The notes below the pieces were generated by a model. That model did no database searches. It saw only the letters and a list, made by a program, of their open reading frames with translations, and had not been told where the DNA came from. Positions 6,894-57,703 of a DNA stretch of 64,000 bases are shown in pieces. Each line of letters begins with the position of its first letter. Positions within the stretch are counted from its first letter, which is position 1. The position numbers and the translations under genes are program-made. This stretch comes from a virus: the IMG/VR virus record IMGVR_UViG_3300042991_000236, positions 2,882 to 66,881 of that record, one strand, 5' to 3'.

Positions 6894-9800
6894 GTGGCTG
6901 ATTCATCTATGCTTATTAACTGGGGTGTACCAACAACAGGTAGCCCTTCTACTGCTCCTGCGCCTATTGCCAGCTTTGAATCTATCATGGGTAAAGACCC
7001 ACGATACTTAAATGCTGATGCTGCTGGTAAAGCTCGTATGGAGTTTGCCTATCAGCAGTTAGCTGAAGCTCAGGCTTTACAGGATCCGAACAATCCTCTT
7101 GTTGCAGAAGCTAAAGCTGCCCAAGCAGAAGCAGATAGCCAGGGTTTCTTGGCTAACATGTTTGATAAAACCATACGGTCTCACAAGCAAGCCTTTGATG
7201 TTGCTCCTCGAGTTGCCGATGCAATGAATCCTGATGGATCCGTAGCTACAGACTTTGGAGCCTGGAGTGCGAAGTACTTTCAGAAGCAACAAGCTGCTCC
7301 AAGAACATATGAAGATAAAAAGCTTGATGCTGATCTGACTCAGAGAATCAAAGCATGGAATGATGGTGGGCCAACAGAAAAGGTTCAGGCAGCCTTTGGG
7401 ATCCTCGGAGATATACTGACCAACCCTAAAGCTGCTATGTACGCTGGAGCCGATTCTGCTTCGTCTATTACTGCAATGTTGCTGGGTGCCAAGACAGGTG
7501 GATTAATTGGTGGTGCTGCAGCTGGACCCGTTGGTGCTACTGTTGGTACAGTTGTAGGTACGGTTGGAGCTTCTGCTTCTCACTCTGCAGCCCTCAAGTT
7601 TATGGAACTGGTTCAGAAAGGTCTTGATGAAGACAAGATCCCATATACTGCTTCCAACATTCAATCCTGGATGGAAAATAACACAGATAAAGTTCAAGAA
7701 TACCAGACCAAGTCTACCAAGTATGGCATGTCTATGGGCGTGGCTGATGCTGCCTTTGGCGCAGTTGGTGGTAAAGTAGCAACAACCTTCGAGAGAGCAG
7801 CGTTGCGACAAGCCAATGCTTCAGCATTGGCGCCAGTCGGAAAAGCTGCGATCTCTGAAATCGTACAAAAAACAGGATCAACAGTTGAGGATGCTACTCA
7901 AGCATATATCCAGTCTCAGGCTAGAAACACTTTAGCTACGCAAACATTCAAATCCAAGGTTGGCTATAAAGCAACTGGTCTGGGCACAGAGATTATCAGT
8001 GAGCCGGCCACAGAAGCTATCGGTACTCTGTCAGCTGGTGAAGAGCTCTCTGCTAAAGAATTGATTATGGAGGCTGTTGGTGGTGTAGGTGCAGGACCAT
8101 ATGGGGCTGCAGTCAATACATCTATCTTTGGTACCAAGATAGCCGGTGACCAGACAAAGGCGTTTGCCAAAAAATTATTGGCCAGTACGCCTGAGTCCCG
8201 GGCAGCCGAAAAAGAACAGAAAGCTGAGATTAAAGCAGCGACTCTCCAGAGACAGTCTCCGGCACACTTCCAGAGAGAAGTTGCAGCGACTGATCCAACA
8301 GATCCGAAAGTTGATATGTGGGCTGACCATACAAATAAAGAAACCTATGATCCAATCAAAGCAGTAACTGTCCTGGCTAAGACAGTGGATCCTGATTCAA
8401 CAGTTGTAGAGAAAGCTCGTGCCGTACAAAACACTTACCTAGATGAGCTAAATAAAGACTACGATAAGTACGACGAACTGCAGGCGCAATTCGATGCAGT
8501 TAAAGATAAAGATAAAGCAGCAGAAGTTAATCTCGAAAGTCAGCTAGTTAATCAAAGGGCTTTACTTAAAGAGAAACGTAGTGTGTACGACCAGGTAGCC
8601 GGCCAAGTTACTTTGATAAAGAATGCGGCTTTAGAGGTTGGTAAAGATAAACCAGTAGATACACCACTGGATAATCCGGCAACCATTAAACCAGATGATC
8701 TGACTGATCACATTACTCAATCGTTTGGATCTCGTGATACGACGCCCGATGAGCAGATCACAGAACTCCTGAAGAGATCAGATCTATCAGCTGAACACAA
8801 AACCATGTTACAGGATATGGCTGACTCCAACGCTATCCGAAAGGTTATTACTGATAGAGCTACTAGTGGTAAGTCTATGGATCAGGTCAGTGCTGATATT
8901 TATCATGGTCCTAAAGGCTCTAAGTTCAAAGGTATTGACTCTTATAAACAAGGTGTCAGAGAAGCTCTTACTTCTGGTAATACTGTGCAATTAACCAAAG
9001 AGCTTGAAGGGCTTAAAGCTTTCAGAGATGCTCATGTTACCAAGGATCAAAATGTTACTGAGATCCTGGCAGCAATGAAAAGCAAAGAAGGCTTATCTAA
9101 AGAACAATCAGCAACCTATCTTAAACTTCAGAGAGAAAATTCAAACTTTGAATTACATCCGATAACATCGGTTGGAATGGCAGGTAATATCAAACGAGAG
9201 GCTGCTGCTCTGAATGCTGAAGTAAAGCTTGCTGAGAGTCTCATAGCTGTCCATAAGACCAAAGGACAGGTGGTAGCCTCACCTACTCCGAGTTCACCCG
9301 TTGTGAGCGATTCTGCTTCGTCCAGTTTAGATATATCTAAATTATCTTTTCCTGAACTACAAAGTATGCACGTTGCAGCTACTGCAGCCATTAACGCAAG
9401 TGATAATTTAGATTCAAATATGGAGCAGTTGGCTATAAAAAAGCAGGTTACTGATGAATTAACTAGAAGAGGAGTTGATCTTAAAGGTAGGCCATTAGTC
9501 ACAACGAGTTCGGCCTCTACAGCCAATCCTGCTTCGTCCGAATCTTCTGTAAAATATGGATTTAAATTATCACAAGATAAACTTGGAAAAGACCAAGGTA
9601 AGGCTGATGTTGCTAATGCTTTTATCGGGTATGGTGCGCTGAATAGAAAGAGCTCAACCGGGCAATATGCGGCAGATGCTAAGTCTCAAAATATTCCTGT
9701 AAATGAGGCCATTACTCCTGATGCCACAACTCGTGCTTTTGTATCAGTATCTTCTGAGGGAATATATAATATACAAACCATAGAACAAGCGGGTCGCATA

Positions 9801-10784
9801 CTTGATGCTGGTGGCACTGTTATTATGGATGCCTCTGGAACCAATAAAGGACAGTCTCATTCTCCTTGGAATGCTAAAGGTGAGGGTGCAGTACAGGACG
9901 CTTTAATAGCTAAATATGGTGCGCCTAAGAAATCTAAGCAGGGCTACAATGTTTGGAGTAATGTTGCAAACAAAGGTGGTGATTCCAGTGGCCAAGAAGA
10001 AGGGCGGGGGCAAGAGGTGCTAAAACCTGCAGAGCCTGTTGTAGCTGCTAAGCCCGTTAATCGTCCACACTTAAAAGATGCCAAAGTTGTTAATGGTATT
10101 CACATAATCAATAATGATAAGAGAGCTACCAAGGAACCAGCTGGTAGCTATGCTGATGGAACTATATTCGTAAACCGCGGTCTAGCGATCGAGGTGTACA
10201 ATGAAAAGCGTAAGCAGGATAAGCCTCATATTGCTCAGGTTATGGGCACCTACGCCGAATTTGAAGCCTTCCTTATAGCTCACGAAAAACATCATGTAGC
10301 CAATAAGCATCATGACACTATGGAGAAACGTGCAGATGGCACTATTGATATTGATCATTTAAATAATAAAGCACTTGAAGCTGAGGCAAGTGTAGCTGCA
10401 TTGACTCCTGAGCAGAAGAAAAAATGGAAAGAGCTCAATACAGCTAAGCCTACTTCAGAATCTAAACCAGGTTACACCGGTGATATCGATACTGACATTG
10501 ACCTAGCAAATGCTGAGATGGACGATGATAGTAGTTCGTATTATAACGAGGAAGGTATTGAATTTGCTGAAGCTGGATCCAATGAAATAAATGAATCGAC
10601 TGATGAAGATTTCTCTGATAGTTTACCGGTTAATAATATACCGGCTGCGGATCCTATCACTGTGTCGTATACAGATAGTATGGGTAACCTGGTAAATGAT
10701 GTATCTTTTGACCAAGCAATGAAAGATCTTGAGACCGAGATCAATGAAGCAAAAGCTATCCTTACGTGTTTTGGTTCTAAATAA
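6894..10784 (+). CDS. Large virion protein, probable separated N-terminal (injection) domain of the virion RNA polymerase
   Basis: 1296 aa; directly follows the gp51-like gene where N4 vRNAP begins; Gly/Ala-rich hydrophobic segments; no polymerase motifs; HEKHH zincin-like motif; AAGGAG RBS before GTG. Confidence 0.6.
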   Translation: MADSSMLINWGVPTTGSPSTAPAPIASFESIMGKDPRYLNADAAGKARMEFAYQQLAEAQALQDPNNPLVAEAKAAQAEADSQGFLANMFDKTIRSHKQAFDVAPRVADAMNPDGSVATDFGAWSAKYFQKQQAAPRTYEDKKLDADLTQRIKAWNDGGPTEKVQAAFGILGDILTNPKAAMYAGADSASSITAMLLGAKTGGLIGGAAAGPVGATVGTVVGTVGASASHSAALKFMELVQKGLDEDKIPYTASNIQSWMENNTDKVQEYQTKSTKYGMSMGVADAAFGAVGGKVATTFERAALRQANASALAPVGKAAISEIVQKTGSTVEDATQAYIQSQARNTLATQTFKSKVGYKATGLGTEIISEPATEAIGTLSAGEELSAKELIMEAVGGVGAGPYGAAVNTSIFGTKIAGDQTKAFAKKLLASTPESRAAEKEQKAEIKAATLQRQSPAHFQREVAATDPTDPKVDMWADHTNKETYDPIKAVTVLAKTVDPDSTVVEKARAVQNTYLDELNKDYDKYDELQAQFDAVKDKDKAAEVNLESQLVNQRALLKEKRSVYDQVAGQVTLIKNAALEVGKDKPVDTPLDNPATIKPDDLTDHITQSFGSRDTTPDEQITELLKRSDLSAEHKTMLQDMADSNAIRKVITDRATSGKSMDQVSADIYHGPKGSKFKGIDSYKQGVREALTSGNTVQLTKELEGLKAFRDAHVTKDQNVTEILAAMKSKEGLSKEQSATYLKLQRENSNFELHPITSVGMAGNIKREAAALNAEVKLAESLIAVHKTKGQVVASPTPSSPVVSDSASSSLDISKLSFPELQSMHVAATAAINASDNLDSNMEQLAIKKQVTDELTRRGVDLKGRPLVTTSSASTANPASSESSVKYGFKLSQDKLGKDQGKADVANAFIGYGALNRKSSTGQYAADAKSQNIPVNEAITPDATTRAFVSVSSEGIYNIQTIEQAGRILDAGGTVIMDASGTNKGQSHSPWNAKGEGAVQDALIAKYGAPKKSKQGYNVWSNVANKGGDSSGQEEGRGQEVLKPAEPVVAAKPVNRPHLKDAKVVNGIHIINNDKRATKEPAGSYADGTIFVNRGLAIEVYNEKRKQDKPHIAQVMGTYAEFEAFLIAHEKHHVANKHHDTMEKRADGTIDIDHLNNKALEAEASVAALTPEQKKKWKELNTAKPTSESKPGYTGDIDTDIDLANAEMDDDSSSYYNEEGIEFAEAGSNEINESTDEDFSDSLPVNNIPAADPITVSYTDSMGNLVNDVSFDQAMKDLETEINEAKAILTCFGSK

Positions 10785-13632: not shown

Positions 13633-16600
13633 ATGTCAAAACTCACCAGCTGTATTATGCAGCAGAGTCTGCAAGCACAAGAGCGTATACCTAAAGAAGT
13701 CAAAATCTGGGCTTCTAAAGAAAAAATGAAAGAAGCCTCTGAAGCTCTGGAAATACATATACAAAAACTAGAGACTATTAAAAAGAGTGTTCAAGACCAA
13801 TACGCTGATAAGCAAGACGCTTATAAAACACAGCCTGTTGAAAATTCTCTAGCGGCTTCCTATGTTAATCGAGCAGAAACAGATCCCACCAATGAACTGA
13901 ATACGTTTAAAGTAAAACCTACCTTCTGGCAGAATCAGGTTCAGCGGTTCAGAAGTATGACTGCTGCAATCGCTCATATATTCTCTCGTGATGTAGTTAC
14001 GGATGGAGAGAAAGCTGTACTGAACCACTTTATGGAAAAAGGTGGATTTGGTGCAAAGATGAATGTAGCCATTAGAGATATATTCAAGATGAAAGGTATG
14101 GAGGCAGCAGGAAAAGCAAGTAGTTTTAAGTATCGTTACATGGATATGCTTCAGTATCTACCCGGGCACCCAGCTACCTTTAATAAGAAGGCTGATAGGG
14201 ATGCTGCGACAGAGAAGCTACAAAAAGAAGGTTATCTTGATTCAGCAACCAGGAACGCTATAGCCGCCACAGTCTATGAGTGGGTCGCCACTGATGGTAG
14301 GAGAAGCATAAGTCAAACGGAGCAGTCCTTGGGGCGTTTACTGAGCTTAGAAAAGGATGAGTCATTACCACGAAATGCATTTGAACTTTTAGAAGATGCA
14401 GGTACTCATGCTGAGACAGTAGCCAAGCAGATGGGTAGAACAATACTTCAGCGTATGAGCATTGCAGCCGGCCCTAAATCTGATTCTCTAGCACAGGCAA
14501 GGATGGAGTTATCTCTTGGTTACCTGGCTCTGGCTGCCATGGAAGAGATAGGTTTAATTGAACGACAGTCGATTATTGCTGACCATACAATAGATGCTAA
14601 AGCTGGTATGAATAAGAAACAATTAGCAGCCAATCCTATTGGTATTGAGGCTTTAAAAAATGGTCACAATCTTACGAAAGAAAAACTTTTTTATAAGAAG
14701 GATGGTAGTAGGCCAGATCCAAAAGGATTGCTACTGATCAAAACAATAAGAGTTATTGATACTAAAACGCTCAAGGGTATTGAAAGTGTTTTTATGGATG
14801 GGCGCCAAGCTTTTGATAAGCTCTTTGCTAATGAGCCACAAGAATTTGGTGTTCGTTGGGTAGCTAAAAAAGTTAAGTCTTTCCGGATCGGGCGATCCAA
14901 TGTTAATTCCAATACCGAGCAAACTAATAATCTAAATAATTATAACAGCATACCGTATCAGCGTAATGATGGCGCTATTGGTTTTCTGAAGTCAATGTGG
15001 AATCTAATTGATAGCCAGAAATCTGATGAAGAAAAAGATGCAATGACATCTGTATTTCAAGAGATGTTCGGGGCGCCTGCAGCTGACAATTTATTAGACC
15101 TCCACAAGAAAAGTAATGAAGGTATACGAAGAGGTATCACGCAAGATTTTCAGGACATACTTGATTTTGAAATCGAGCGTGAACGAACAGGCAATAATGA
15201 GTTTTACCCAGCATCAGACTTTATGGTTCAGATGCGTATGATCATGCGTGGAGAGATCAATCCGCAGAATAAGAAAATGCATCGAGCTACATTTGCTCCT
15301 ACTGGATTCCAGACAACTTTTAAGAAAGATCCAAAAGGTAAACTAGACCAAGCATTCCTTGAAGCTGTAGCAGTCGCATTTGACCTTGAGACGGGCAAAG
15401 GACTTCTAGGTGATGCTGATGCTCAGGTTGCTGCATTGATGGACATCCTGAGCAATCCTGAGAATAAAAAATATGAAGCTGTATCTAAAGCAATCACAGC
15501 TATTCAAAAATATAACGTCAATGGCGAGATGACCGGAGCAATGTTGCAAGACATTGCGAACGGATCATCGGCCATTGACAATAAAGTAACAGGGCTTAAA
15601 GGTCTCTTCGAGTATGCCAGGTATGCCTCAGTAAAATCGGGTGAAGAATTCACTACCGATATGCATGCTGAGATCGATGGTGTCAGCAATGGTATTATTA
15701 TTGGTATTATACAACTCCTTCCAGACAGTGCCGATAAACGTACTGTATTAGCTATGGCAGCTATGGGTGGGGTCAGTACAAGTGCATTTAAAGAAAGTTT
15801 AAATAAGCTTTTAATCAAGAATAACTTGCATGATGCCTATCAGCGCATGGCTAAAGAGTGGGCACTAAATATTGCCAACTTTAAGCATGACTGGGCTGTA
15901 TCAAAAGATAAACAAGAACAAGTCTTATTTAAACAAGCTATGGCATTAGGTGGAATACTTGGAGAGTTCCAGGATAAAGAAGGGGTTATAAATAATATAA
16001 TTCGTAAGTTGTCCAAACCAAGAACTATGCAGATAGTCTTTGGTGCTGCTACGAAAGGGCAAATTAAATTATTCATGAGTGAGAGTGTTTTACATGATGG
16101 AATATATAAAAAAGTTGAAAAGATTATTGAAAGGGTACGTAAAGTAGATAAGGCAAATCCAGACCCACTATTAAGAGGGGACTTTACAAAGTTGATGGCT
16201 GATGTTGCACTCCTCACAGGTAACAAATCTTTCACGTTAGAAAAATATTTTGCTGTCAACAGCAAAGCAATTATCCTCAAAAACCTGCAAGCCTTCAAGC
16301 TGGAACAGACAGATATCAATGCCCTGACTGAGGCAGTAGAGGCTACTTATGGCAAGGCTATGGAGGGCGCAATTGATACTATCTACGGAGCTTTAATTGA
16401 AGCACGTAAACCTTTAAATGCTGTGGTTCAGTTAGCTGTAACTACCTACAACACTATTCTTAAAAAGTTGGTGGATATTAAAATTCAACAGCAAACTGAT
16501 GACCTGGTTGTTATGAAAGCCCGAGTAGATGAGCTATCTAAACAGCTATACGATCCTACCTTTACTGGTGACAAAGAAGACATTTCCTCACGCCTGGCTC

Positions 16601-19600
16601 AGTACAAAGAAGACATGCAATTCAAAGAAGATCCTACCGTAATTACTAAAGAGGATCTGGCTGACATACTTAAATCTATTGAACATCTTATTCCTAAAAT
16701 AAAGACGCCTATTCATAAGGCTGGTAAAGGTAACGAGAGTTATTTGCCATTGGCAACTGTCGGCAAAAATAGAGCTTACAATAAACAAGCTGAAGTTGAA
16801 CAAGAATACAACGGCAAACTATCAAAATATGTAGGTCATGCTGAAGGTATTCCATATCTGGAAAACTCTGGTGTAGCCCCAGTTATTACTGCCATTCATA
16901 TGATGGATTCTATGGTGGCTAATGGGTTGATGAAACAGAATACTCATTTCTTAAATAACCATGATGGTTTCTCACATGGAATAGGAGACAGTCAAATAAT
17001 AGCTGATGCAGCCAATACCATATTTGGTCAGATAATGACTGATTACAGTATTGCACAGGCGTTTGCTGACATGCATGAAGAGTTAGCAGCAAAAAGTAAC
17101 GAGATGATGAAAGCTCTGGAAGTAACTTCAGATGAACTCCTTTATGGCACCAAAATAGATCCAAAGTCGGGACTGATGACTGGTGGTTTAATTAACGACA
17201 ACGTCATAACATATGAGCTATTGAAGACTGCTCAAATAGTAACTGATAAGCAAAGAAAGGAATTCATTGGAGAAGACTTTTTAGGGGGGGCAGAATATAA
17301 AAAAGCTTTAGAAGAGTTTATGACTTTTGTTACTGAGTCTCTAGGAGATAGTGATGTAGATCAAATATTGGCTGCCCTTACAAAGAATATAAATAGTATG
17401 GCAGAACAGACTGCTAGAAATAAAAAAGAAATTACTGACGCTGTGACTCACTGGGGTAATTACCCGTATCATGGACTGGGTGTAGATGTCACACCTACAA
17501 ACACATCTGGTAAAGTATTTGGTGACATAGATACAAATACGGTTCTGTTCAATGATGAGACTATAAATGAAGTTGATAGATTAACTTTAAAAGAAAGAAT
17601 GGAACAAGGCCATGGTTCCAGTGATACAGATGTATCCATAAACAAGGATGACTACGATCCTGTCCAGATTATTGATCGGAAAAATGTATTAGAAGTCTTG
17701 GATGCAATTGTTGATGTTGATAAAGGATCTCCTCATATCAGTGTTCAAGATTCACCATCACATCTGAGCCATCTGAAGAAAATCCTCAGCTCTCTCGTGG
17801 CACCGGTGATGACTCAGGTTGAACTATTCATGGGTGAGCATAAGATAAACAATGAGACCCAGGGTATGTGGTCAGTCTCAGCTGATGGATCCAAAAAGAT
17901 ATGGATTCAAACTCAGCAGCGATCGACACTTCCCCCATCCGGTATGCTCAGCCATGGCATTCGTATGTCGACAGCTGAAGTTTATGTTCATGAGTTGGTT
18001 CATCATATTACCACTTCTGGATTAAAGAATTATCCTCATTTGCAAAGACAAGCAGAAGCTCTTCGTGAGCTGGCATATTCTGAGTTCAGCAAGATGTATG
18101 GTCAAGAAGCATACCGAGTATTCATGAGCGACCCGAATGCCGACCTGACGGATCCTGCAAACGAATATGAGATAAAAGCAGCCAAGGCCAGATGGAAATA
18201 CGTATTCAATTCAAAACGTAATCCAGATGGCAGCAATAATGGTGTACCTGAGTTTATCTCCCATGGCATAACCAACGAGAACTTCAAACGGGAACTGGCC
18301 AAGCTTACTGTTAGCCAGGAAATAATTGATGCCAGAAAATCCCTGCGAACAGTCTTCGGCCGAAATATGCAGGAGACAGTTGTTAATATTTTCACCTTGG
18401 TTACGAACTTTATTTATGAGCGATTCAATAAACAGCGTCACTCAGATAAAGTTGACCAGGAACTGGAAAACCTTGTACGAGCTATCTCATACACAGAGAG
18501 CAAGAATAAGACGATGTTGGCCCGGGCTGCTATAGCTCTGGAAGGAACACTTACAGCTATTGGTTTAACCATGGATGAAAAGATAGTTGGTAGGGCTAAG
18601 AAGATAATCAATAGCACAGCGGTTGGTAAAGCAGTAGAGGCAATAAAAGAATTTCCTGAATTAAACAATATGCTTTCTTATCAGATGAGGATTGCCCTCC
18701 ATTGGTATCATAGCCAGCAGCAAGGATTGATCCCCGCTGTATGGTCAGAGATGCAAGGGGTGACAGAAAGAGTCAAGCCTCTCCATGATATGATCAGAAT
18801 GGCTAAGTATGTCAGAGACCATGCAAAGAATGAAGCTGCAGCTACTATCCGGAAAGACTTGAAAGCTTTATTTAAAGAGCCTCTGGATACATTTACCAAA
18901 TCAGCCATCACAAAAGTGCTGCTTAAAACCGATGTCAGTTACCTGGTTGGTAAAGGCCTATCATCTCAAGTCATTACTGGTTATGTTTCCGATTCCTCTA
19001 AAAGAGAGGCTCGTATCAAAGAGATCCTTAAACAGATCAATCAGGATCCAAACCTTCAGCCATACGCACACTTCTTTGAGAATGCAGCTGATGACCTTGG
19101 TTACTTTATGATTAATAGTGTGCCCAAGAACTCAGTAGATGTACCTCTTATGAATGCCCATAATATTGTGGCAATAGCTGAGCGTACATATGACGCTGAA
19201 CACCAGATAAAATCGTATCCTAACGCTGTAGATCTGGTTGAGCAGTTGGCAACTCTGTACTCTCTCCGATACGTTAAAGGATCTGACAGAAATGCAGCAG
19301 TCAAAGTCATGACTGAAAACTGGTCAGCTATGGAAGATATCTTGAATCGGCATAATGCTTTAAAGGATCGTGCGTTCAAGGATACATTCTACGGTAATCC
19401 ATACGAGATGACCAAGGGCTATACGAAACAGATCCTCAACTCTAGGATACAGTTCGAGATGGCGCATGTTGCGGATCCAACAAATCCAAATGATCCTACT
19501 CGTAAAATGTACGAAGACGCCGGCTATTACATGCAGATTTCTCCTCTGAAGAGGGATCCAAAGGATCCAGTACAATCAGATATCTATCTGTTCAAATCTA

Positions 19601-21366
19601 CGCTGGGTACAGTTAATGACCTGCAGCCCGGGATTGCTTCATTTACTCAGAATATTGGTCGAGGTGCTGTAGCGTATGATATCCAAGGACAGCTGGGTAA
19701 CACAATCGATCCAGCTCAAGAAGCTGATAAGAATAATCAGATAGTTCTGGCCAGTGTGGAAGATAAAATTAAGGCAATGTTTAATCCAAGATCAGCCATG
19801 GATAAGGATAAATACAAGCACAGCAATAATCCGGAAAACTACATGGTACCGAAGTTTAATCATGTAGGTAAAATGACTGAGATGCGTTACATGATGAATG
19901 AGCATACCAAGGATACCGTCCTTGAGCAGTTTTCAGAATTCGATGCAGTACTGGCGGCCATGACCAGTCAGATAATTGATAAGGTAGTGGCACCCAAGAT
20001 AAACCAGGATCTGATTCTGGAGCTGAAGAGAATGGCAGATGATAAGGCCTTTGGTTTAAAAGCTCAGAGAGCTGCTTATGTAGAGATCTCTCCATGGTCG
20101 CCAGAAAAAAGATACAGAGATATCTATCATCAGCTTCCTCCCAAGGCTCGTCAGAATATTAAATCTGAGTGGGGTGAGGATAGGATGTGGGTGGCTCAGG
20201 ATGTAGTTGATCTGGCTTTTGGTCAACGTAAATACTCTCCAAGTGAGACCTTCGGTAAAACCAAACAGGAAAGAAACCTGTTTGAGAAGATATTGGTAGA
20301 AACGCTCAAATTAGCTCTAGGAACGACAAACTTTTTCAATGATACCCCGGCAGGGTCTATTGAGAATACGTCTGTCCAGGGCCGTGCTGTGCGTCGGGCT
20401 ACTGCAGTTTATTCAACTATGGCTCAATTAACCAAGATGGGTAAATCCAACATTGTTGTTAGGAACTTGCCAGTTATTGTAAATAATCATAGTAGTAATA
20501 TGATGTATCTCAAATCCAGAGGAATAACTTTGGATGAGATCTTCAGACTTAATAAAGAAGCAGCTCTTGATATTCTGCAATATCAGAAGGATAAGTCTGA
20601 ACTGGATTCCTGGATCAATAAAAGAGAACTGATAGCCAGAAAGCATTCAGTGCCTCAGGCTGAACGTAATGTCCAGATCACAAATATCAATCGTAAGATT
20701 GCGACTCTTGAGAATCAGTTGGCATTGAATAAGGTCACGGAATTGGTGAAAGCTGGAGCAGTCCCAGGTGTTGTAGATGATGTGGAAATGGGACATACCC
20801 AGTCACCACATACCTACGGCGTTGATAAATTTCTTGATGATACATTGAGTGTACTTCCGGATAAGCTTCAGAGAGCCGGCAAAGCGTTATTTATGACTAC
20901 AGATACTGAAGGCTTCAAGATGATGAACAACGCCGTTAAGCTTACTGACTTTACTGGTCGATATGTGTTATACCACCATTTGACTGGTAAGAAAGGAATG
21001 AGTAAGGATCAGGCCATCTCTGAAGTTATGGATAATTTTATAAACTTTGATCTACCTACCCATCGGATGATTGGTATGCTAAATGAGATTGGTCTGGTAA
21101 TGTTTTCCAAGTATCAGTTTCGAGTTCTCAAGCAGATAAAGAATGTATCGCTTGAGCATCCATTCTCTACGCTGGCTACCTACATCATTGGTAAAGCTAT
21201 GGGTGACAATAATATTATCAATTCAATTCCATTGGTTACTAAAGATGTATTTCAGTCACTGGCTAATCCATTCTTTACAGCAGCAGGCTCTTTATCTGAT
21301 ATCGTAACAGTGGATGGTGTACAACTTGCGGGCGGTGTAATGGCTGACGCAATTACTCCGAATTAA
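13633..21366 (+). CDS. Virion-encapsidated RNA polymerase (N4 vRNAP-like): catalytic and C-terminal domains
   Basis: 2577 aa; motif A EIDGVSNG, motif B RKLSKPRTMQIVFG, motif C NNHDG; HELVH zincin-like motif; C-terminal DF.GRY.LY.HL..F.NFD. Confidence 0.9.
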   Translation: MSKLTSCIMQQSLQAQERIPKEVKIWASKEKMKEASEALEIHIQKLETIKKSVQDQYADKQDAYKTQPVENSLAASYVNRAETDPTNELNTFKVKPTFWQNQVQRFRSMTAAIAHIFSRDVVTDGEKAVLNHFMEKGGFGAKMNVAIRDIFKMKGMEAAGKASSFKYRYMDMLQYLPGHPATFNKKADRDAATEKLQKEGYLDSATRNAIAATVYEWVATDGRRSISQTEQSLGRLLSLEKDESLPRNAFELLEDAGTHAETVAKQMGRTILQRMSIAAGPKSDSLAQARMELSLGYLALAAMEEIGLIERQSIIADHTIDAKAGMNKKQLAANPIGIEALKNGHNLTKEKLFYKKDGSRPDPKGLLLIKTIRVIDTKTLKGIESVFMDGRQAFDKLFANEPQEFGVRWVAKKVKSFRIGRSNVNSNTEQTNNLNNYNSIPYQRNDGAIGFLKSMWNLIDSQKSDEEKDAMTSVFQEMFGAPAADNLLDLHKKSNEGIRRGITQDFQDILDFEIERERTGNNEFYPASDFMVQMRMIMRGEINPQNKKMHRATFAPTGFQTTFKKDPKGKLDQAFLEAVAVAFDLETGKGLLGDADAQVAALMDILSNPENKKYEAVSKAITAIQKYNVNGEMTGAMLQDIANGSSAIDNKVTGLKGLFEYARYASVKSGEEFTTDMHAEIDGVSNGIIIGIIQLLPDSADKRTVLAMAAMGGVSTSAFKESLNKLLIKNNLHDAYQRMAKEWALNIANFKHDWAVSKDKQEQVLFKQAMALGGILGEFQDKEGVINNIIRKLSKPRTMQIVFGAATKGQIKLFMSESVLHDGIYKKVEKIIERVRKVDKANPDPLLRGDFTKLMADVALLTGNKSFTLEKYFAVNSKAIILKNLQAFKLEQTDINALTEAVEATYGKAMEGAIDTIYGALIEARKPLNAVVQLAVTTYNTILKKLVDIKIQQQTDDLVVMKARVDELSKQLYDPTFTGDKEDISSRLAQYKEDMQFKEDPTVITKEDLADILKSIEHLIPKIKTPIHKAGKGNESYLPLATVGKNRAYNKQAEVEQEYNGKLSKYVGHAEGIPYLENSGVAPVITAIHMMDSMVANGLMKQNTHFLNNHDGFSHGIGDSQIIADAANTIFGQIMTDYSIAQAFADMHEELAAKSNEMMKALEVTSDELLYGTKIDPKSGLMTGGLINDNVITYELLKTAQIVTDKQRKEFIGEDFLGGAEYKKALEEFMTFVTESLGDSDVDQILAALTKNINSMAEQTARNKKEITDAVTHWGNYPYHGLGVDVTPTNTSGKVFGDIDTNTVLFNDETINEVDRLTLKERMEQGHGSSDTDVSINKDDYDPVQIIDRKNVLEVLDAIVDVDKGSPHISVQDSPSHLSHLKKILSSLVAPVMTQVELFMGEHKINNETQGMWSVSADGSKKIWIQTQQRSTLPPSGMLSHGIRMSTAEVYVHELVHHITTSGLKNYPHLQRQAEALRELAYSEFSKMYGQEAYRVFMSDPNADLTDPANEYEIKAAKARWKYVFNSKRNPDGSNNGVPEFISHGITNENFKRELAKLTVSQEIIDARKSLRTVFGRNMQETVVNIFTLVTNFIYERFNKQRHSDKVDQELENLVRAISYTESKNKTMLARAAIALEGTLTAIGLTMDEKIVGRAKKIINSTAVGKAVEAIKEFPELNNMLSYQMRIALHWYHSQQQGLIPAVWSEMQGVTERVKPLHDMIRMAKYVRDHAKNEAAATIRKDLKALFKEPLDTFTKSAITKVLLKTDVSYLVGKGLSSQVITGYVSDSSKREARIKEILKQINQDPNLQPYAHFFENAADDLGYFMINSVPKNSVDVPLMNAHNIVAIAERTYDAEHQIKSYPNAVDLVEQLATLYSLRYVKGSDRNAAVKVMTENWSAMEDILNRHNALKDRAFKDTFYGNPYEMTKGYTKQILNSRIQFEMAHVADPTNPNDPTRKMYEDAGYYMQISPLKRDPKDPVQSDIYLFKSTLGTVNDLQPGIASFTQNIGRGAVAYDIQGQLGNTIDPAQEADKNNQIVLASVEDKIKAMFNPRSAMDKDKYKHSNNPENYMVPKFNHVGKMTEMRYMMNEHTKDTVLEQFSEFDAVLAAMTSQIIDKVVAPKINQDLILELKRMADDKAFGLKAQRAAYVEISPWSPEKRYRDIYHQLPPKARQNIKSEWGEDRMWVAQDVVDLAFGQRKYSPSETFGKTKQERNLFEKILVETLKLALGTTNFFNDTPAGSIENTSVQGRAVRRATAVYSTMAQLTKMGKSNIVVRNLPVIVNNHSSNMMYLKSRGITLDEIFRLNKEAALDILQYQKDKSELDSWINKRELIARKHSVPQAERNVQITNINRKIATLENQLALNKVTELVKAGAVPGVVDDVEMGHTQSPHTYGVDKFLDDTLSVLPDKLQRAGKALFMTTDTEGFKMMNNAVKLTDFTGRYVLYHHLTGKKGMSKDQAISEVMDNFINFDLPTHRMIGMLNEIGLVMFSKYQFRVLKQIKNVSLEHPFSTLATYIIGKAMGDNNIINSIPLVTKDVFQSLANPFFTAAGSLSDIVTVDGVQLAGGVMADAITPN

Positions 21367-29664: not shown

Positions 29665-31845
29665 TTAAGCTCCACCTTGCTGGTAGTATTTCTTGGCTAC
29701 CGTTTTCCGAATAGTCTGTTCGATCTCATCATTACTGAGAGGATTCTCTAGTTTCTCATTCAGACTGAGGATCTTCATGTCAATGTCAGCAAGAGCGTAG
29801 CCAGAGTCGACCAACATCAATGCATATTTCAGAAGCTGGTTGTTACGATTGCCACTGGTGATGTTGAGCATGAACCAACGCTCTACACCGTTGAGATTCT
29901 GATGGCTGAGTATGAGCTCTTTACGCTCGTCATTCTTACTGGTACGAGGAATGAAGAGTAGGGCATCCAGCATCTCTCCTGTATTCACATGGATATCTGC
30001 TCCATCGTAGGTTGCCCATTTCCTGGCGCGCTGACCGGTATCCGTATCACATTCGAATGGAAGCCAGTCATAGATGTTTCGCATGAACTCTTTGTAATCG
30101 AGCTCATTCAGCTTGAGAATGTAGTTCATAGGCAGAACCAGTCTGAACCGATGCTCTTGAGCTGTGTGGCGTTTGGTAGTATGGATGGCATAGGTGTAAT
30201 CTTTGAGCAGGACTTTAACTGTATCCAGCTTAACGCCACCGTCGACATCCAGTACCAGAAGGTTAAACCCAGGCACCATTTCTTCCTCGGCTCTCCGGCC
30301 GCTGCTTGTATGATGGCTACACCAGTGGTGATCAACCATTTTGAACAGCTCAGGAAGTTTGTCAAATGGTGCCTGAACATTCTCGTATCCAACAGCGAAG
30401 TCAGTGCTGTGGGATAGATACATCTTATCCAGCGAAGTAGGAACCAGGGTTTCACCAGAGATAAATTCGATATTGTTTTCGAACTTCCTCTTGATGATGA
30501 CGGAATTCTTATAGCCCCAGGCTATAGCCAGTTGCATAAGATCCATCTTTAGAGCCTGAGACCCTTTGTAGAAGGGCAGACTCTCGGTGAGGTCTACGTG
30601 TGTTGCCTCACGATTGATACTGGCCAGATACTTTGCCAGCTTCACATAATTCTTGTCCTGGTTCATCATGGCTTTGAATGCCTTGCCGGATTCTTCTGCC
30701 ATGGCTATAGCGTGATACAGATTGTCTTCTGTGATCTCACCATGTCCGTCTATGAATGCTAGACCTCCAGCAAGTTTGAGGGCTTTGAAATACCGGTGAC
30801 CGAGTTCAGCTTTGTAGATCTCTTCATGGTCTCCGAGCTTGTCAGCTATATCTTCACAATGAAGCTTGTACTGTATGAGGAGAAGACTGACATCTTTTGA
30901 TACCTGGATCTCTTTGCAGTAGTTGATCTCTGCAGCGAGAATAGCGAACCGGTTTGACAGAGAAGCAATCAGTGCTTCAGATGTAACACTGGTTAACTTG
31001 TCATAGATATCCGCGGCTGACAGATGTTTATTACGTCCGGAACCTTTGGTATATCCAAAGAAACAGCGTCTGCCGTAACCGGTCTGAATAAATGTCCAGA
31101 ATTCATCTTCAACCTTGGCGCCATCAAAGAGTTTGGCCGGCGTACCGAAGAGCATAAGGTTGGTTGGGGTCTTACCCTCAATCTCTTCCGATCGTACGTT
31201 CTCTTTGGTATTCTTGGTCAGTTTCTGCTTGACCTTGCCAACGTCAAAGAGTTCGAGGAAGGTTCCCAGTACGTCAACATTACCAAGTAAATTGGATCCG
31301 ATCTCATCAATCTCCAGGTTCATGGCGCCGATGTTTGCCATCAGAAGCTTGTGACGCATCTGCTTCACGGCTGCCGTAGTACCTGAGTCAAATGAGAATG
31401 CCATTTTACCAAGACTTTCATATTCCTTGACTGTCTGCAGATGCATTTCATCGAATTCGATCATAGGTGAAGTAAGGCTTGGGTTCTGGTTATGAATGTT
31501 TGTCCGTTTAACCGATAATGCCCGGAGATTCTTTTCCGACAGCTTAGGAAGAGTTTCTTCAAAGAAGACGGTCCGGAATTTGTTAATGATGTGGTCTTCC
31601 AGTAAATTGGTACTATGACCTTTACCTATACCGGAGAGCCCCAGGTTGATACCATAGAAATTGACAGGTATATCCCCCCTGTCTTTTGTCTTTATATGGA
31701 CACGCATAGTGGCTGCCATTTTACAGACGTAGTAACAGACCATCATCCGAAAGAATTGTGGGTTAGAGTTTTGTGTCTTCTCGCACAGTAACTCCACTAT
31801 CCGTTCCGTCGTTGGATGAAAGGTCAGTTTGCTGAGATCCCGCAT
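29665..31845 (-). CDS. DNA primase / primase-helicase (N4 gp43-like)
   Basis: SGIGKG, DEIGSNL, VLDVD, H..FRLVLP, GNRNNQL (PriCT-like); AAGGAGG RBS. Confidence 0.85.
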   Translation of the reverse strand: MRDLSKLTFHPTTERIVELLCEKTQNSNPQFFRMMVCYYVCKMAATMRVHIKTKDRGDIPVNFYGINLGLSGIGKGHSTNLLEDHIINKFRTVFFEETLPKLSEKNLRALSVKRTNIHNQNPSLTSPMIEFDEMHLQTVKEYESLGKMAFSFDSGTTAAVKQMRHKLLMANIGAMNLEIDEIGSNLLGNVDVLGTFLELFDVGKVKQKLTKNTKENVRSEEIEGKTPTNLMLFGTPAKLFDGAKVEDEFWTFIQTGYGRRCFFGYTKGSGRNKHLSAADIYDKLTSVTSEALIASLSNRFAILAAEINYCKEIQVSKDVSLLLIQYKLHCEDIADKLGDHEEIYKAELGHRYFKALKLAGGLAFIDGHGEITEDNLYHAIAMAEESGKAFKAMMNQDKNYVKLAKYLASINREATHVDLTESLPFYKGSQALKMDLMQLAIAWGYKNSVIIKRKFENNIEFISGETLVPTSLDKMYLSHSTDFAVGYENVQAPFDKLPELFKMVDHHWCSHHTSSGRRAEEEMVPGFNLLVLDVDGGVKLDTVKVLLKDYTYAIHTTKRHTAQEHRFRLVLPMNYILKLNELDYKEFMRNIYDWLPFECDTDTGQRARKWATYDGADIHVNTGEMLDALLFIPRTSKNDERKELILSHQNLNGVERWFMLNITSGNRNNQLLKYALMLVDSGYALADIDMKILSLNEKLENPLSNDEIEQTIRKTVAKKYYQQGGA

Positions 31846-32050
31846 AATACTCCTCCTTTGTAGTAGTAAATTGTTCACGCTTGATATCAAGCATTTCGGC
31901 TACCAATAACCTGAGTACAGGTTGTAGCCTTTCTGTTATCTCATAGGCATGGATATTCAATGCATCCAAGGAGATTTGTTCCTGTGGGGATAGAGGAGAT
32001 AGGGAAATGAATTTGGCTGTTATGTTGGTTTCCAATTGAAGCTGGCTCAT
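31763..32050 (-). CDS. Hypothetical protein
   Basis: ORF in operon with GGAG RBS; overlaps primase start. Confidence 0.4.
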   Translation of the reverse strand: MSQLQLETNITAKFISLSPLSPQEQISLDALNIHAYEITERLQPVLRLLVAEMLDIKREQFTTTKEEYYAGSQQTDLSSNDGTDSGVTVREDTKL

Positions 32051-45693: not shown

Positions 45694-45732
45694 GAATTCT
45701 CCTATAAAGTATCGCTTTGAATAAATCAAATC

Positions 45733-54650: not shown

Positions 54651-54728
54651 GGCGTCTCCTAAAAAATTTGGTGTACCCTCATAGAGAAGGTACACCATTA
54701 TCATAAAGTATTCAAGTCATAAAGTACT

Positions 54729-55937
54729 CTATGACAAAAAGTATTCTGATTTCATGATCTCGTCACCAAGATTGTTCGAGGCTTTGGTGTAATTGAAGGT
54801 AGGGTCATTCCTTACCTCTCTGATGATCTGTACGCCTACGTTGCTGTCAGCAAGCTCTACGAGGATATCCCTGTAGACCTCTCTCATTTCATTGACGTAA
54901 TTCGGATGGCACTTGAATGCGTCATGGATAGTTAATACAGGGAATGAAGGACGGGTAAGTGTTTCATCGATTAATGCAGAGAGTTCAATTCTGTATCCAA
55001 TCGAGAATTCAAGTACATTGTTCTCTGTAATGAATTCAACTCCACGTAAACTTAAGAATCCATGATCTCTTGCCGAGACTTCAATTGGATGTAAGATCAT
55101 TGGATTGGATGGTTTATTACTGGCATGACCCAAAATACAGTCTACTTCAAGTAATCGAGCACGATCGTAGTTACAGCGTCTGACAGTCTCTCTTACTAGA
55201 AATCCATCAGTGGCGTGAACCATGTTGGCGGCAACCGCAAGACCAAATTCTGAACCAATATTCTCCTCATAAATATATGTCAGTGTGGAATGATCCAGTT
55301 CATCAATCTCGATCTTGGCCTTACATTTCTGTAACACCGGTACACGAGCCTGGAAGCCATCAGGTAGCGTATGACTGTGAACCAAGGCATTAGGTTGCCA
55401 AGATGATAAGAGTTCCTGCATAAGGAAGCATGCTCCAGGAGCTACCAATTCTTGAGCCTTATAGAATGCATAAAGCTCATTGGTTTCCTCACCAAATATC
55501 CTCTTAGGTGTTGCTACAGATCCATAATAATGGGTCATCGTAGCAGATTTAGCATCAGCTCTCGGAACTGTTACATCACTGGGTAACATGGCATTCATGG
55601 CTTTAGTACATTCTCCATACATATCCATTCTCTTGGATCCAATAACACCAGTATTGGAGCTGGTTACATGACAGCCCGTAAGGATGCCAAGGATGGATAT
55701 GCCTGATGCACATGCGTCTAGCTCTACAAGGAAACCTGATGGCCTACCTGCAAGAGCGTCTTCAAGAGCTAATACACCGGCAAGGAACTGAGCAGGTTTC
55801 TCTGCATAGGCAACCTTAGCATGCAGATCCTTAATCGAATCTACCCAAGCTATGCGCTGTTTGAAGGACTTCTTATCAAGTCCGTATTGGTTGGCTATAT
55901 CTATTTTGATGTATTCCAACGCTGAAAAACGTATCAT
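54729..55937 (-). CDS. RNA polymerase II subunit 2 (N4 gp16-like)
   Basis: LDACASG, RADAKSATMTHYYG, ANMVHATD, IHDAF. Confidence 0.92.
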   Translation of the reverse strand: MIRFSALEYIKIDIANQYGLDKKSFKQRIAWVDSIKDLHAKVAYAEKPAQFLAGVLALEDALAGRPSGFLVELDACASGISILGILTGCHVTSSNTGVIGSKRMDMYGECTKAMNAMLPSDVTVPRADAKSATMTHYYGSVATPKRIFGEETNELYAFYKAQELVAPGACFLMQELLSSWQPNALVHSHTLPDGFQARVPVLQKCKAKIEIDELDHSTLTYIYEENIGSEFGLAVAANMVHATDGFLVRETVRRCNYDRARLLEVDCILGHASNKPSNPMILHPIEVSARDHGFLSLRGVEFITENNVLEFSIGYRIELSALIDETLTRPSFPVLTIHDAFKCHPNYVNEMREVYRDILVELADSNVGVQIIREVRNDPTFNYTKASNNLGDEIMKSEYFLS

Positions 55938-56684: not shown

Positions 56685-56900
56685 TTATTCTCCTGTAAGT
56701 AATGAGTCCATTAAGGACTTCTGTAAGCATGCAGATAAATCTCTCGCACATGGAATGCAAATATGCTGATAGAAGTCACTACCAGCTTTACGAGACGTAA
56801 GGGTGATCAGTTTTCCTCTATTAGATAAAGTGCATATCTCACACCAGACACCTTTATTAGCGTCAAGTTCAGTCATGATCAATCCCTGTTCATGTATCAT
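56685..56900 (-). CDS. Hypothetical Zn-binding protein
   Basis: CEIC..CIPC; ATGA overlap. Confidence 0.5.
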   Translation of the reverse strand: MIHEQGLIMTELDANKGVWCEICTLSNRGKLITLTSRKAGSDFYQHICIPCARDLSACLQKSLMDSLLTGE

Positions 56901-57703
56901 AATTTCACGATCTCCTTATTGGCTAACTGAACGATAGCCTTTTTGTATGAGCTTCCTTGGTATCCCACGCAGTAACCGCTGGCGTAACAGCGTCCACGAG
57001 TATCATTGGAGTGCTCAAGATAGAAGAGGTTTCCCTGTTGTTCTATGAGCTCATAGATGCCCTTAGAGTGTTCCACGAATGTATCCCAAGCATCTACCTG
57101 CTCTTGGGTTTCATGTACGTTGGTGGTAGTTTCAGGCATGCTCTCGATGATCCTGAGTTCAAGACTCAAGGGTATGTTGTTCATGCGATTGATATGATCA
57201 ACGCATACATCACCCTCATGTTGTTTAAATCTGGATCCAAGGATCTGAGATTTAGTGAGAGGCTCTGGCTCTTCAAACACTGGCATGTGCTTGATGAACT
57301 GAGGGATCTGTACTCGGAGCACATGATCGGTAGTAATCATCATAGTCTTATCCGATGTTTTGGTAATGACTATGAGTTCACACTGGTAAGCCAATGCTAT
57401 CATTTCAGCGGCTGTCTTGATTCTATCGAGAGTATCAGCACACTTCACATGATTAGCTATGGCGCCTATCATAGCCTGATAGGTGATACCATTCGGATGA
57501 AGCAGAGCCATAGCAAACATATGATAGACAACCTCATACAGCTCTTCTACTTCAGGACTCCATTCAGCCAGTCTCTTGTTCTTACTGGCGTAGTGATGAC
57601 TCATGTAACACCATTGATCCAAGGTTTCAACAGTGTCCTGTATATCCTGTATGAATGGGTTATGGTCAAAATAGTTCATCAGCCATTTAATTTCTGGTTG
57701 CAT
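56897..57703 (-). CDS. RNA polymerase II subunit 1 (N4 gp15-like)
   Basis: Y.SK.KRL, ILG..H, DTRGRCY..GY..QG..YKKA. Confidence 0.9.
   Translation of the reverse strand: MQPEIKWLMNYFDHNPFIQDIQDTVETLDQWCYMSHHYASKNKRLAEWSPEVEELYEVVYHMFAMALLHPNGITYQAMIGAIANHVKCADTLDRIKTAAEMIALAYQCELIVITKTSDKTMMITTDHVLRVQIPQFIKHMPVFEEPEPLTKSQILGSRFKQHEGDVCVDHINRMNNIPLSLELRIIESMPETTTNVHETQEQVDAWDTFVEHSKGIYELIEQQGNLFYLEHSNDTRGRCYASGYCVGYQGSSYKKAIVQLANKEIVKL

What the first reader, a model, noticed from the sequence alone, without database searches (positions are those of the whole stretch)
16003..16044. Natural Tyr->Phe in motif B of the virion RNAP
Seen: R-KLS-K-PRTMQIV-F-G (TTT at 16039-16041), exactly the R-x3-K-x7-YG spacing but with Phe. 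The phage's own RNAP II keeps Tyr (RADAKSATMTHYYG). Established: this Tyr (T7 Y639, N4 mini-vRNAP Y678) discriminates the 2'-OH, and Y->F relaxes rNTP/dNTP selectivity. Inference: the enzyme may naturally accept dNTPs or 2'-modified NTPs, use another discrimination route, or have a primer-making role.
Basis: partly seen in the sequence, partly recalled or inferred. Interest (0 to 1): 0.8.

Follow-up and report, generated by a model that had tools for sequence, protein, structure and literature searches.

The report
Common Phe variant in virion RNA polymerase
The phage's injected RNA polymerase really carries Phe where coliphage N4 and T7 carry the sugar-sensing Tyr, but about a quarter of related polymerases do too, and nearly all of those also carry a particular His at a second sugar-sensing position.

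Summary
Window 13633-21366 (+) encodes a 2577-aa N4-type virion RNA polymerase (vRNAP). It carries R791-x3-K795-x7-F803-G804, and codon 16039-16041 is TTT. Sequence alignment puts F803 on N4 Y1675, which is mini-vRNAP Y678; a weak profile alignment puts it on T7 Y639.

The Phe is not a rarity. It is present in 36 of 151 non-redundant vRNAP polymerase domains and needs 11-12 Tyr/Phe switches on the tree. Cultured Pseudomonas phages YH6 and Littlefix have it. A 2010 paper on LUZ7/LIT1/PEV2 already notes a "Y678F substitution". The window's nearest relative has Tyr.

One result goes beyond the finding. Phe rows carry His at the column of H1089 in 35 of 36 cases, against 45 of 115 Tyr rows. H1089 appears to be the equivalent of T7 H784, the second ribose-sensing residue. 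In 9 independent Phe/Tyr pairs, His changed in the same direction in about 7 and in the opposite direction in 0. This column ranked first of 577 scanned.

My reading is that F803 with H1089 is an alternative active-site set-up, not a lost sugar check. Interest is moderate.

The parts
13633..21366 (+). Virion RNA polymerase gene covering the polymerase domain and C-terminal domain, 2577 aa (P0001). It has no N4-type N-terminal domain.
   Evidence: PHROG 2206 'virion RNA polymerase', E 5.6e-265. N4 vRNAP chains in PDB match at E 5e-25. The AF2 model of residues 440-1320 has pLDDT 90.6, and its best Foldseek hits are N4 mini-vRNAP, E 2.5e-21, TMq 0.63-0.65.
16003..16044 (+). Motif B: R791-x3-K795-x7-F803-G804, at the end of the O-helix-like helix
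   Evidence: R is conserved in 108 of 109 rows and K in 109 of 109. The model has a helix at 788-802 that ends just before F803.
16039..16041 (+). TTT codon for F803, the homologue of N4 mini-vRNAP Y678 and T7 Y639
   Evidence: hhalign places it on T7 Y639, weakly. Contigs of runs X2 and X3 are identical here.
16897..16899 (+). CAT codon for H1089, in I-H-M-M-D1092. This is the column that co-varies with Phe, and I take it to be the equivalent of T7 H784.
   Evidence: hhalign hit 2 aligns it to T7 H784 and D1092 to T7 D787, but the hit is weak (E 0.021, probability 2.3%).
16876..16887 (+). A1082 and I1085, on the same helix face as H1089 (i, i+3, i+7). They rank 3rd and 4th in the covariation scan.
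   Evidence: The model has a helix at 1082-1099.
15676..15693 (+). Motif A: D682 (N4 D559) through G687. By spacing, G687 would correspond to T7 G542.
   Evidence: D is conserved in 108 of 109 rows. N686 and G687 are invariant in 45 sequences. The spacing D537...G542 in T7 was read from L013.
15235..15237 (+). R535, the equivalent of N4 R424 in the T/DxxGR motif
   Evidence: R is present in 106 of 109 rows.
16960..16965 (+). Motif C: H1110-D1111, in N-N-H-D-G-F
   Evidence: D is invariant in 45 sequences. It aligns to T7 H811-D812 in hhalign hit 2.
6894..10784 (+). Separate 1296-aa ORF that resembles the N-terminal domain of giant vRNAPs, suggesting a split vRNAP
   Evidence: It matches PHROG 2206 profile positions 141-834 of 3406, E 1.1e-19. 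phmmer against PDB sequences, which include full-length N4 gp50, found nothing.
54729..55937 (-). RNAP II large subunit with motif B Tyr (RADAKSATMTHYYG at 55562-55521)
   Evidence: Tyr is present in 119 of the 120 best homologues; the remaining row is a truncated sequence with a gap there.
56897..57703 (-). RNAP II small subunit
   Evidence: PHROG 2166 'N4-like RNA polymerase', E 2.3e-48.

Best explanation
The ORF encodes a working N4-type virion RNA polymerase. F803 occupies the position of the ribose-sensing Tyr (N4 Y678, T7 Y639).

In this family the site switches back and forth between Tyr and Phe. Phe is kept almost only when the residue three positions before the conserved Asp upstream of motif C is His. 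Here that residue is H1089, and I equate it with T7 H784, the second residue implicated in ribose discrimination.

The family therefore has three common active-site states: Tyr+Gln, Tyr+His and Phe+His. Phe without His is nearly absent. The window's enzyme is Phe+His, and its closest relative is Tyr+Gln.

The inferred mechanism is as follows. The enzyme still makes RNA. The hydrogen bond from the Tyr hydroxyl to the 2'-OH of the incoming NTP is lost. His1089 and its helix face (A1082, I1085) make up for this, either by sensing the 2' group near the primer end or by holding Phe in place.

What is shown: the homology, the recurrence of Phe and the coupling to His. What is inferred: the role of His in sugar selection, and any change in dNTP use.
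For: Homology and intact catalytic residues.

Recurrence of Phe:
- Y 80 / F 29 in 109 rows, needing 10 changes, at least 8 of them forced by well-supported branches.
- In the window's own clade of 36 rows, 8 Phe rows need 7 changes. This is no more clustered than shuffled labels.
- P0001 (F) is sister to P0002 (Y) with support 99-100.
- Named phages YH6 and Littlefix carry F, and the substitution is noted in PMC3715699.

Coupling to His in 151 non-redundant rows: F/H 35, F/Q 1, Y/Q 52, Y/H 45, Y/other 18.
- Of 9 phylogenetically independent F-versus-Y pairs, His changed the same way in 7.0 and the opposite way in 0.0, sign-test median p 0.0156 (FastTree).
- With IQ-TREE the figures are 6.8 and 0.0, same p.
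- In a scan of 577 variable columns the His column ranks first, 6.96 against 5.0 for the next. Two neighbours on the same helix face rank 3rd and 4th.

Equivalence to T7 H784:
- T7 residues were read from locus L013.
- H784 is at least 90% conserved in T7 plus 23 RNAP II sequences.
- hhalign hit 2 aligns F803/Y639, H1089/H784, D1092/D787 and D1111/D812 in the same order.

Roles of Y639 and H784 in T7 RNAP: PMC4551944, passages read.

Contrast with RNAP II: Tyr in 119 of 120 homologues.
Against: - The His column was found by a scan, not predicted in advance. A p of 0.016 would not survive correction for 577 columns. The case rests on the column ranking first and on that column being the one I equate with T7 H784.
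- That equivalence rests on a weak profile alignment (E 0.021, probability 2.3%) plus motif spacing. The tool's own A1-versus-A2 comparison aligned only motif B, at probability 0.4%.
- I could not read coordinates, so contact between F803 and H1089 is not shown.
- One Phe row has Gln (P0104, a 1131-aa partial sequence).
- N4 itself has Gly at this column with Tyr, and 45 Tyr rows have His, so His is not specific to Phe.
- No biochemistry exists here for any natural-Phe vRNAP. Two literature searches found none.
- The coupling could be plain side-chain packing with no part in sugar selection.
Confidence: 0.55

Rival explanations
1. The Tyr/Phe choice is nearly neutral. vRNAP makes only a few early transcripts in a cell where rNTPs far outnumber dNTPs, so the hydroxyl is dispensable. 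The link to His is side-chain packing or shared ancestry, not sugar sensing.
For: Phe is scattered like shuffled labels within the window's clade. Only Y or F ever occupies the column, which suggests the aromatic ring is what is required. Sister pairs differ in it. The point about NTP pools is general knowledge and comes from no call.
Against: Pure neutrality does not explain F/H 35 against F/Q 1 when 52 of 115 Tyr rows have Gln. It also does not explain why the His column ranks first of 577. RNAP II of the same phage group keeps Tyr in 119 of 120 homologues, so the hydroxyl is not generally dispensable in related enzymes.
Confidence: 0.28
2. The Phe enzyme really has relaxed sugar selectivity, and the phage uses this. 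For example, it might incorporate dNTPs or make mixed primers for replication.
For: T7 Y639F accepts 2'-modified NTPs (PMC4551944). [quoted passage not shown]
Against: No feature of the window points to such a role. The phage has its own primase (29665-31890), DNA polymerase (36680-39571) and helicase (42152-43498). Close relatives with the same gene set carry Tyr. The coupling to His argues for retained checking.
Confidence: 0.08
3. The Phe is an artefact: a sequencing or assembly error (TAT read as TTT), or a misalignment in which another Tyr fills the site.
For: A single A-to-T change would produce it. The independent support is contigs at depth of only about 3.
Against: Contigs from other runs are identical over 15735-16320. 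Thirty-five other non-redundant homologues carry Phe. The motif spacing is exact, and all 109 rows align in one column. phmmer and hhalign both place it on the Tyr.
Confidence: 0.03

Closest known systems
Coliphage N4 gp50 virion RNA polymerase (mini-vRNAP; PDB 2po4, 3c3l, 9pnq)
   Same: Homologous polymerase and C-terminal domains and the same fold. The R, D, R, K and D catalytic residues are shared. The genome context also matches: a two-subunit RNAP II, and primase, helicase and DNA polymerase of the kinds seen in N4-like phages.
   Different: N4 has Tyr at motif B and Gly at the His column. N4 is a single 3500-aa chain with an N-terminal domain at residues 1-919 (PMC13492108). Here the chain is 2577 aa and an ORF resembling that domain stands apart. 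Identity in the polymerase domain is only about 23%.
vRNAPs of Pseudomonas phages of the LIT1/YH6 (Litunavirus) and Littlefix kinds
   Same: They carry a natural Phe at the motif B Tyr site together with His at the H1089 column (L012 and L005 are both F/H). The substitution was noted in print in 2010 (PMC3715699).
   Different: They belong to a distant all-Phe clade of 17 rows. They are about 3400-aa single chains. The window's Phe is a separate, recent switch, since its sister carries Tyr.
T7 RNA polymerase and its engineered Y639F and Y639F/H784A mutants
   Same: The same two positions appear to be involved. Y639F widens 2' substrate range. H784 lies in the minor groove of the hybrid, and H784A is thought to remove termination after a modified nucleotide (PMC4551944).
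   Different: T7 and the RNAP II homologues keep both Tyr and His. The laboratory mutants remove them. Natural vRNAPs lose one or the other but almost never both. Relatedness to T7 is seen only at fold level (E about 1e-8).

Membership tests
N4-type virion RNA polymerase (PHROG 2206; Schitoviridae gp50-like) | Sequence homology to gp50 polymerase and C-terminal domains | tested here: met
   PHROG 2206 at E 5.6e-265. N4 vRNAP chains match at E 5e-25, with stretches in the Pol and CTD regions.
N4-type virion RNA polymerase (PHROG 2206; Schitoviridae gp50-like) | Mini-vRNAP fold of the polymerase domain | tested here: met
   The AF2 model has pLDDT 90.6. The ten best Foldseek hits are all N4 vRNAP entries, E down to 2.5e-21, TMq 0.63-0.65.
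N4-type virion RNA polymerase (PHROG 2206; Schitoviridae gp50-like) | Catalytic residues R424, D559, K670 and D951 (N4 mini-vRNAP numbering, as listed in PMC2784036) | tested here: met
   R535, D682, R791 and K795 are conserved. D1111 is invariant in 45 sequences. Its identity with N4 D951 is by motif and by the MAFFT alignment.
N4-type virion RNA polymerase (PHROG 2206; Schitoviridae gp50-like) | Tyr of motif B (Y678) | tested here: not met
   The residue is F803. However, 36 of 151 family members also lack the Tyr, so it does not define the family.
N4-type virion RNA polymerase (PHROG 2206; Schitoviridae gp50-like) | One giant chain with N-terminal, polymerase and C-terminal domains | tested here: not met
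   The chain is 2577 aa and begins roughly where the N4 N-terminal domain ends. An ORF resembling that domain lies at 6894-10784. Most of the window's clade is 2400-2700 aa.
N4-type virion RNA polymerase (PHROG 2206; Schitoviridae gp50-like) | No cysteines (noted for N4-like vRNAPs in PMC2784036 and PMC3715699) | tested here: inconclusive
   There is one Cys, at residue 7, before Met9. A start at Met9 would give a Cys-free chain. The true start was not determined.
N4-type virion RNA polymerase (PHROG 2206; Schitoviridae gp50-like) | Packaged in the virion, injected, and transcribes early genes from hairpin promoters | not testable with these tools
   This needs virion proteomics and transcription assays. 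Hairpin promoters were not looked for.
T7-like single-subunit RNA polymerase (Pfam PF00940) | Match to the Pfam family model | tested here: not met
   The Pfam-A scan of P0001 found 0 families at E up to 1. Likeness to T7 and mitochondrial RNAPs appears only at fold level, E about 1e-8, TMq 0.33-0.41. The phage's RNAP II large subunit does carry PF00940.

The most novel reading that the evidence does not exclude
In virion RNA polymerases the two residues known from T7 work on ribose discrimination (the Y639 and H784 equivalents) behave as a mutually dependent pair. Evolution has repeatedly exchanged Tyr+Gln for Phe+His and almost never allowed Phe without His. If so, natural Phe+His enzymes such as this one select ribose by a His-based route. 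Natural or engineered Phe+Gln versions should then be the truly promiscuous ones.
Probability: 0.4. Interest if true: 0.6.

Novelty: new member of a known kind. Interest (0 to 1): 0.42.

Why it matters
As first stated, the finding matters little. A Phe at this site is a frequent natural state of vRNAPs and was noted in 2010.

The pattern around it is more useful. There are at least 11 independent Tyr/Phe switches, and nearly all the Phe forms sit on a His background at the column I equate with T7 H784. That amounts to a natural mutagenesis experiment on how single-subunit RNA polymerases tell ribose from deoxyribose.

It gives a direct four-enzyme test: F/H, Y/H, Y/Q and F/Q. It also points to natural enzymes that may accept 2'-modified NTPs without the loss of stability seen in engineered T7 mutants, which is of practical interest for making modified RNA.

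It also shows that the Tyr should not be used as a family-defining residue when annotating vRNAPs.

Tried and rejected
- Megablast of the gene against cultured phages found no match. tblastn found 91 records, all under 60% identity and 27% or less in the 60 rows listed, so there is no close cultured relative.
- A first covariation scan limited to -330..+160 around motif B found no consistent partner. The His column lies further downstream and appeared only when the window was widened.
- The 98-row independent-pair test was not significant (median p 0.0625). Significance came only after adding sequences.
- The in-tool profile comparison of A1 with A2 aligned only motif B, at probability 0.4%. 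The local hhalign on trimmed fragments gave the longer but still weak alignment.
- phmmer of the ORF at 6894-10784 against PDB sequences found nothing. Its likeness to the N-terminal domain rests on one PHROG match.
- The review PMC4496689 contains no text on Y678 or dNTPs. PMC13434306 and PMC13492108 do not discuss the Tyr.
- The primary papers were not held: Kazmierczak 2002 and Padilla & Sousa 2002. Supplementary Fig. S2 of PMC3715699 could not be seen; only its legend was read, so which of its sequences carry Phe comes from my own reading of YH6 and Littlefix.
- The source run X1 laid no contig; nothing follows from that.
- I did not look for early hairpin promoters, did not predict the host, and did not check H1089 in other runs.
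- Rows left out:
  - From the 109-row set: 5 sequences too short around the motif, 4 misaligned, and those with no phmmer alignment over the site.
  - FBKp27 (Y-S by eye) was left out of the tree.
  - From the 98-row set: 4 sequences with a short C-terminal side.
  - From the 151-row set: 12 rows lacking one site, and 9 near-duplicates at 97% identity or more.
Full report
WHAT IS THERE

The window is part of an N4-like phage genome with 41.8% G+C. ORF 13633-21366 (+) encodes a 2577-aa protein, P0001.
- It matches PHROG 2206 'virion RNA polymerase' at E 5.6e-265.
- It matches the N4 vRNAP chains in the PDB at E 5e-25, in both the polymerase and C-terminal regions.
- A local Pfam-A scan found nothing, although the protein collection lists precomputed PF21894 and PF21867 for it. 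I did not look up what those accessions are.
- An AlphaFold2 model of residues 440-1320, built on 45 homologues, has mean pLDDT 90.6 and pTM 0.88.
- The ten best Foldseek matches of that model are all N4 vRNAP entries (E down to 2.5e-21, TMq 0.63-0.65). Mitochondrial and T7 RNA polymerases follow at E about 1e-8.

The surrounding genes fit an N4-like phage:
- a two-subunit RNAP II (54729-55937 and 56897-57703);
- a primase, a DNA polymerase, a Dda-like helicase and an exonuclease;
- tail fibre proteins.

No cultured phage is close. Megablast found nothing, and all 91 tblastn records are under 60% identity, 27% or less in the 60 rows listed.

THE OBSERVATION

Bases 16003-16044 encode R791-KLS-K795-PRTMQIV-F803-G804, with TTT at 16039-16041. 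The bare pattern also occurs by chance in the window, so its meaning comes from homology.
- phmmer aligns this stretch to N4 so that R791, K795 and F803 fall on N4 R1663, K1667 and Y1675. These are R666, K670 and Y678 of mini-vRNAP, counting from residue 998.
- In the model the helix 788-802 ends just before F803, as expected for the end of an O-helix.
- The other catalytic residues are in place:
  - R535 (N4 R424), D682 (N4 D559), R791 and K795 are conserved in 106-109 of 109 rows.
  - D1111 in N-N-H-D-G-F is invariant in 45 sequences.
- Contigs of two other public runs cover 15735-16320 without a difference. They may be one data set filed twice, they are contigs at depth about 3, and the likely source run laid nothing. 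This supports TTT but is not a raw-read check.

HOW COMMON PHE IS

I collected homologues by a word-indexed search (26 proteins) and by an exhaustive HMMER search of cluster representatives (109 proteins).
- Among the resulting 123 proteins, the residue aligned to F803 is Y in 79 and F in 27. It is not aligned in 14, and 3 rows are misaligned.
- I read motif B in ten named phages:
  - Pseudomonas phages YH6 (Litunavirus) and Littlefix have Phe.
  - N4, phi50-12, pYD6-A, Ea9-2, Axy11, inbricus and JA-1 have Tyr, and FBKp27 has Tyr-Ser.
[quoted passage not shown] I could not see the figure itself.
- On a tree of 109 polymerase-domain fragments, built without the trait's columns, Y 80 / F 29 need 10 changes, at least 8 of them forced by well-supported branches.
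  - One clade of 17 rows is all Phe and holds YH6 and Littlefix.
- In an IQ-TREE of the window's own clade (36 rows), 8 Phe rows need 7 changes, which is no fewer than shuffled labels give.
  - P0001 (Phe) is sister to P0002 (Tyr), and P0005 (Phe) is sister to P0004 (Tyr).
- No residue other than Tyr or Phe occupies the column.
- By contrast, the 120 best homologues of the RNAP II large subunit have Tyr in 119, and the last is a truncated sequence. That set is less divergent (41% identity or more) than the vRNAP set.
  - Among the six vRNAP relatives of 41-56% identity listed, two carry Phe.

So the Phe is real but ordinary for this family, and it is on record.

A COUPLED SECOND SITE

I asked whether anything changes together with Tyr to Phe.
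- A scan limited to 160 residues downstream of motif B found nothing consistent.
- Over the whole 881-residue domain, one column stood out. All 10 Phe rows of alignment A1 have His at P0001 position 1089, while the 35 Tyr rows have Gln 24, His 10 and Leu 1.
- In a 98-row alignment the table was F/H 26, F/Q 1, Y/Q 35, Y/H 30 and Y/other 6.
  - Of 572 columns, this was the only one where a residue shared by at least 90% of Phe rows is held by under half of the Tyr rows.
- The phylogenetically independent pair test on that set was only suggestive (8 pairs; 5.3 the same way, 0 the opposite way; median p 0.0625).
- I then added 17 IMG/VR loci and 24 further proteins from a profile search, aligned everything to an HMM (172 sequences), and removed near-duplicates.
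- In the resulting 151 rows the table is F/H 35, F/Q 1, Y/Q 52, Y/H 45 and Y/other 18.
  - Tyr/Phe needs 12 changes on a FastTree tree and 11 on an IQ-TREE tree.
  - Of 9 independent pairs, His goes the same way in 7.0 (FastTree) or 6.8 (IQ-TREE) and the opposite way in 0.0. Median p is 0.0156.
- The same statistic run on all 577 variable columns puts this column first: 6.96, against 5.0 for the next, which is P0001 position 1004. A1082 and I1085 rank third and fourth.
  - Positions 1082, 1085 and 1089 are spaced i, i+3, i+7 on a modelled helix, so they lie on one face.
- In the window's clade the two states read S-P-x-V-x-x-I-Q-M-x-D with Tyr and A-P-x-I-x-x-I-H-M-x-D with Phe. Tyr+His forms look like intermediates.

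WHAT THE SECOND SITE IS

H1089 lies three residues before the nearly invariant D1092 and 22 residues before the motif C Asp D1111.
- In T7 RNAP, read from the T7 genome record, H784 lies three residues before D787 and 28 before D812.
- The window's own RNAP II shows the same V-H-x-x-D-G pattern.
- H784 is at least 90% conserved across T7 plus 23 RNAP II sequences.
- A local profile-profile alignment places F803 on Y639, H1089 on H784, D1092 on D787 and D1111 on D812 in one co-linear hit. The hit is weak, however (E 0.021, probability 2.3%), and the in-tool comparison recovered only motif B.
- I therefore treat the equivalence as likely, not shown.

Passages of PMC4551944 say the following about T7 RNAP:
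- The Y639 hydroxyl hydrogen-bonds the ribose 2'-OH.
- Y639F allows 2'-fluoro and 2'-amino NTPs.
- H784A is thought to remove premature termination after a modified nucleotide.
[quoted passage not shown] By alignment or spacing, the P0001 counterparts of those four residues would be R535, G687, F803 and H1089.

READING

The most likely account is this.
- The polymerase is functional.
- The family tolerates the loss of the Tyr hydroxyl when the His is present.
- Tyr+Gln and Phe+His are alternative set-ups reached repeatedly through Tyr+His.
- N4 itself is Tyr+Gly. I recall that N4 Y678F relaxes sugar selectivity, and a Tyr+Gly enzyme has no His to fall back on, so that would fit. The primary paper was not available to check.

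Whether the His acts on sugar choice or only packs against the aromatic ring cannot be decided here. The rivals are:
- near-neutral drift with packing-only coupling;
- a real, used relaxation of sugar choice;
- artefact.

The phage's own primase and DNA polymerase and the Tyr in close relatives with the same gene set argue against a special primer-making role.

CAVEATS

- The His column was found post hoc.
- Its p-value alone would not survive correction for multiple testing.
- The T7 equivalence is weakly supported by alignment.
- No coordinates could be inspected.
- Most sequences are metagenomic predictions.
- The sample is made of cluster representatives, not all genomes.

NOVELTY

A vRNAP with a natural Phe is a new member of a known kind. 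I found no paper that holds both 'vRNAP' and 'H784', or both 'vRNAP' and 'Y639F', in the searchable library. That library lacks most subscription journals.

Noticed in passing
window 6894-10784 (+) and 13633-21366 (+): The vRNAP looks split. A separate 1296-aa ORF matches the N-terminal part of the giant-vRNAP profile (PHROG 2206 positions 141-834 of 3406, E 1.1e-19). The Pol-CTD chain begins roughly where the N4 N-terminal domain ends. About 2.8 kb of other small ORFs lie between the two genes. Many relatives are also 2400-2700 aa, so this may be a clade-wide architecture.
   Followed up: partly
window 55934-56605 (-): A 223-aa HNH endonuclease ORF (PHROG 374, E 2.5e-56) sits between the genes of the two RNAP II subunits (54729-55937 and 56897-57703) and overlaps the large-subunit gene by 4 bases. 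It may be a homing endonuclease insertion.
   Followed up: no
window 13651-13659 (+): P0001 has a single cysteine, at residue 7, two codons before Met9. N4-like vRNAPs are described as cysteine-free (PMC2784036, PMC3715699). A start at Met9 would make this one cysteine-free too.
   Followed up: no
P0001 residue 1004 (window 16642-16644): This is the second-ranked column in the covariation scan. Leu is favoured in Phe rows (5.06 the same way against 0.04 the opposite way). P0001 itself has Ile there. It is not explained.
   Followed up: no
proteins P0251-P0266: These are vRNAP-like proteins of 4200-5000 aa, longer than N4 gp50. One source names one of them with a YbiA-like (DUF1768) label, and one carries PF01464. 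All have Tyr at motif B, and some have Gln or Ser after it instead of Gly.
   Followed up: no
window 44527-45729 (-) and 53988-54704 (-): There are further nuclease genes in the replication module: a 400-aa HNH endonuclease (PHROG 1314) and an endonuclease VII-like ORF (PHROG 1035).
   Followed up: no
P0001 versus Pfam: The local Pfam-A scan gave no family at E up to 1, while the protein collection lists precomputed PF21894 and PF21867 for the same protein. The discrepancy is unexplained.
   Followed up: no
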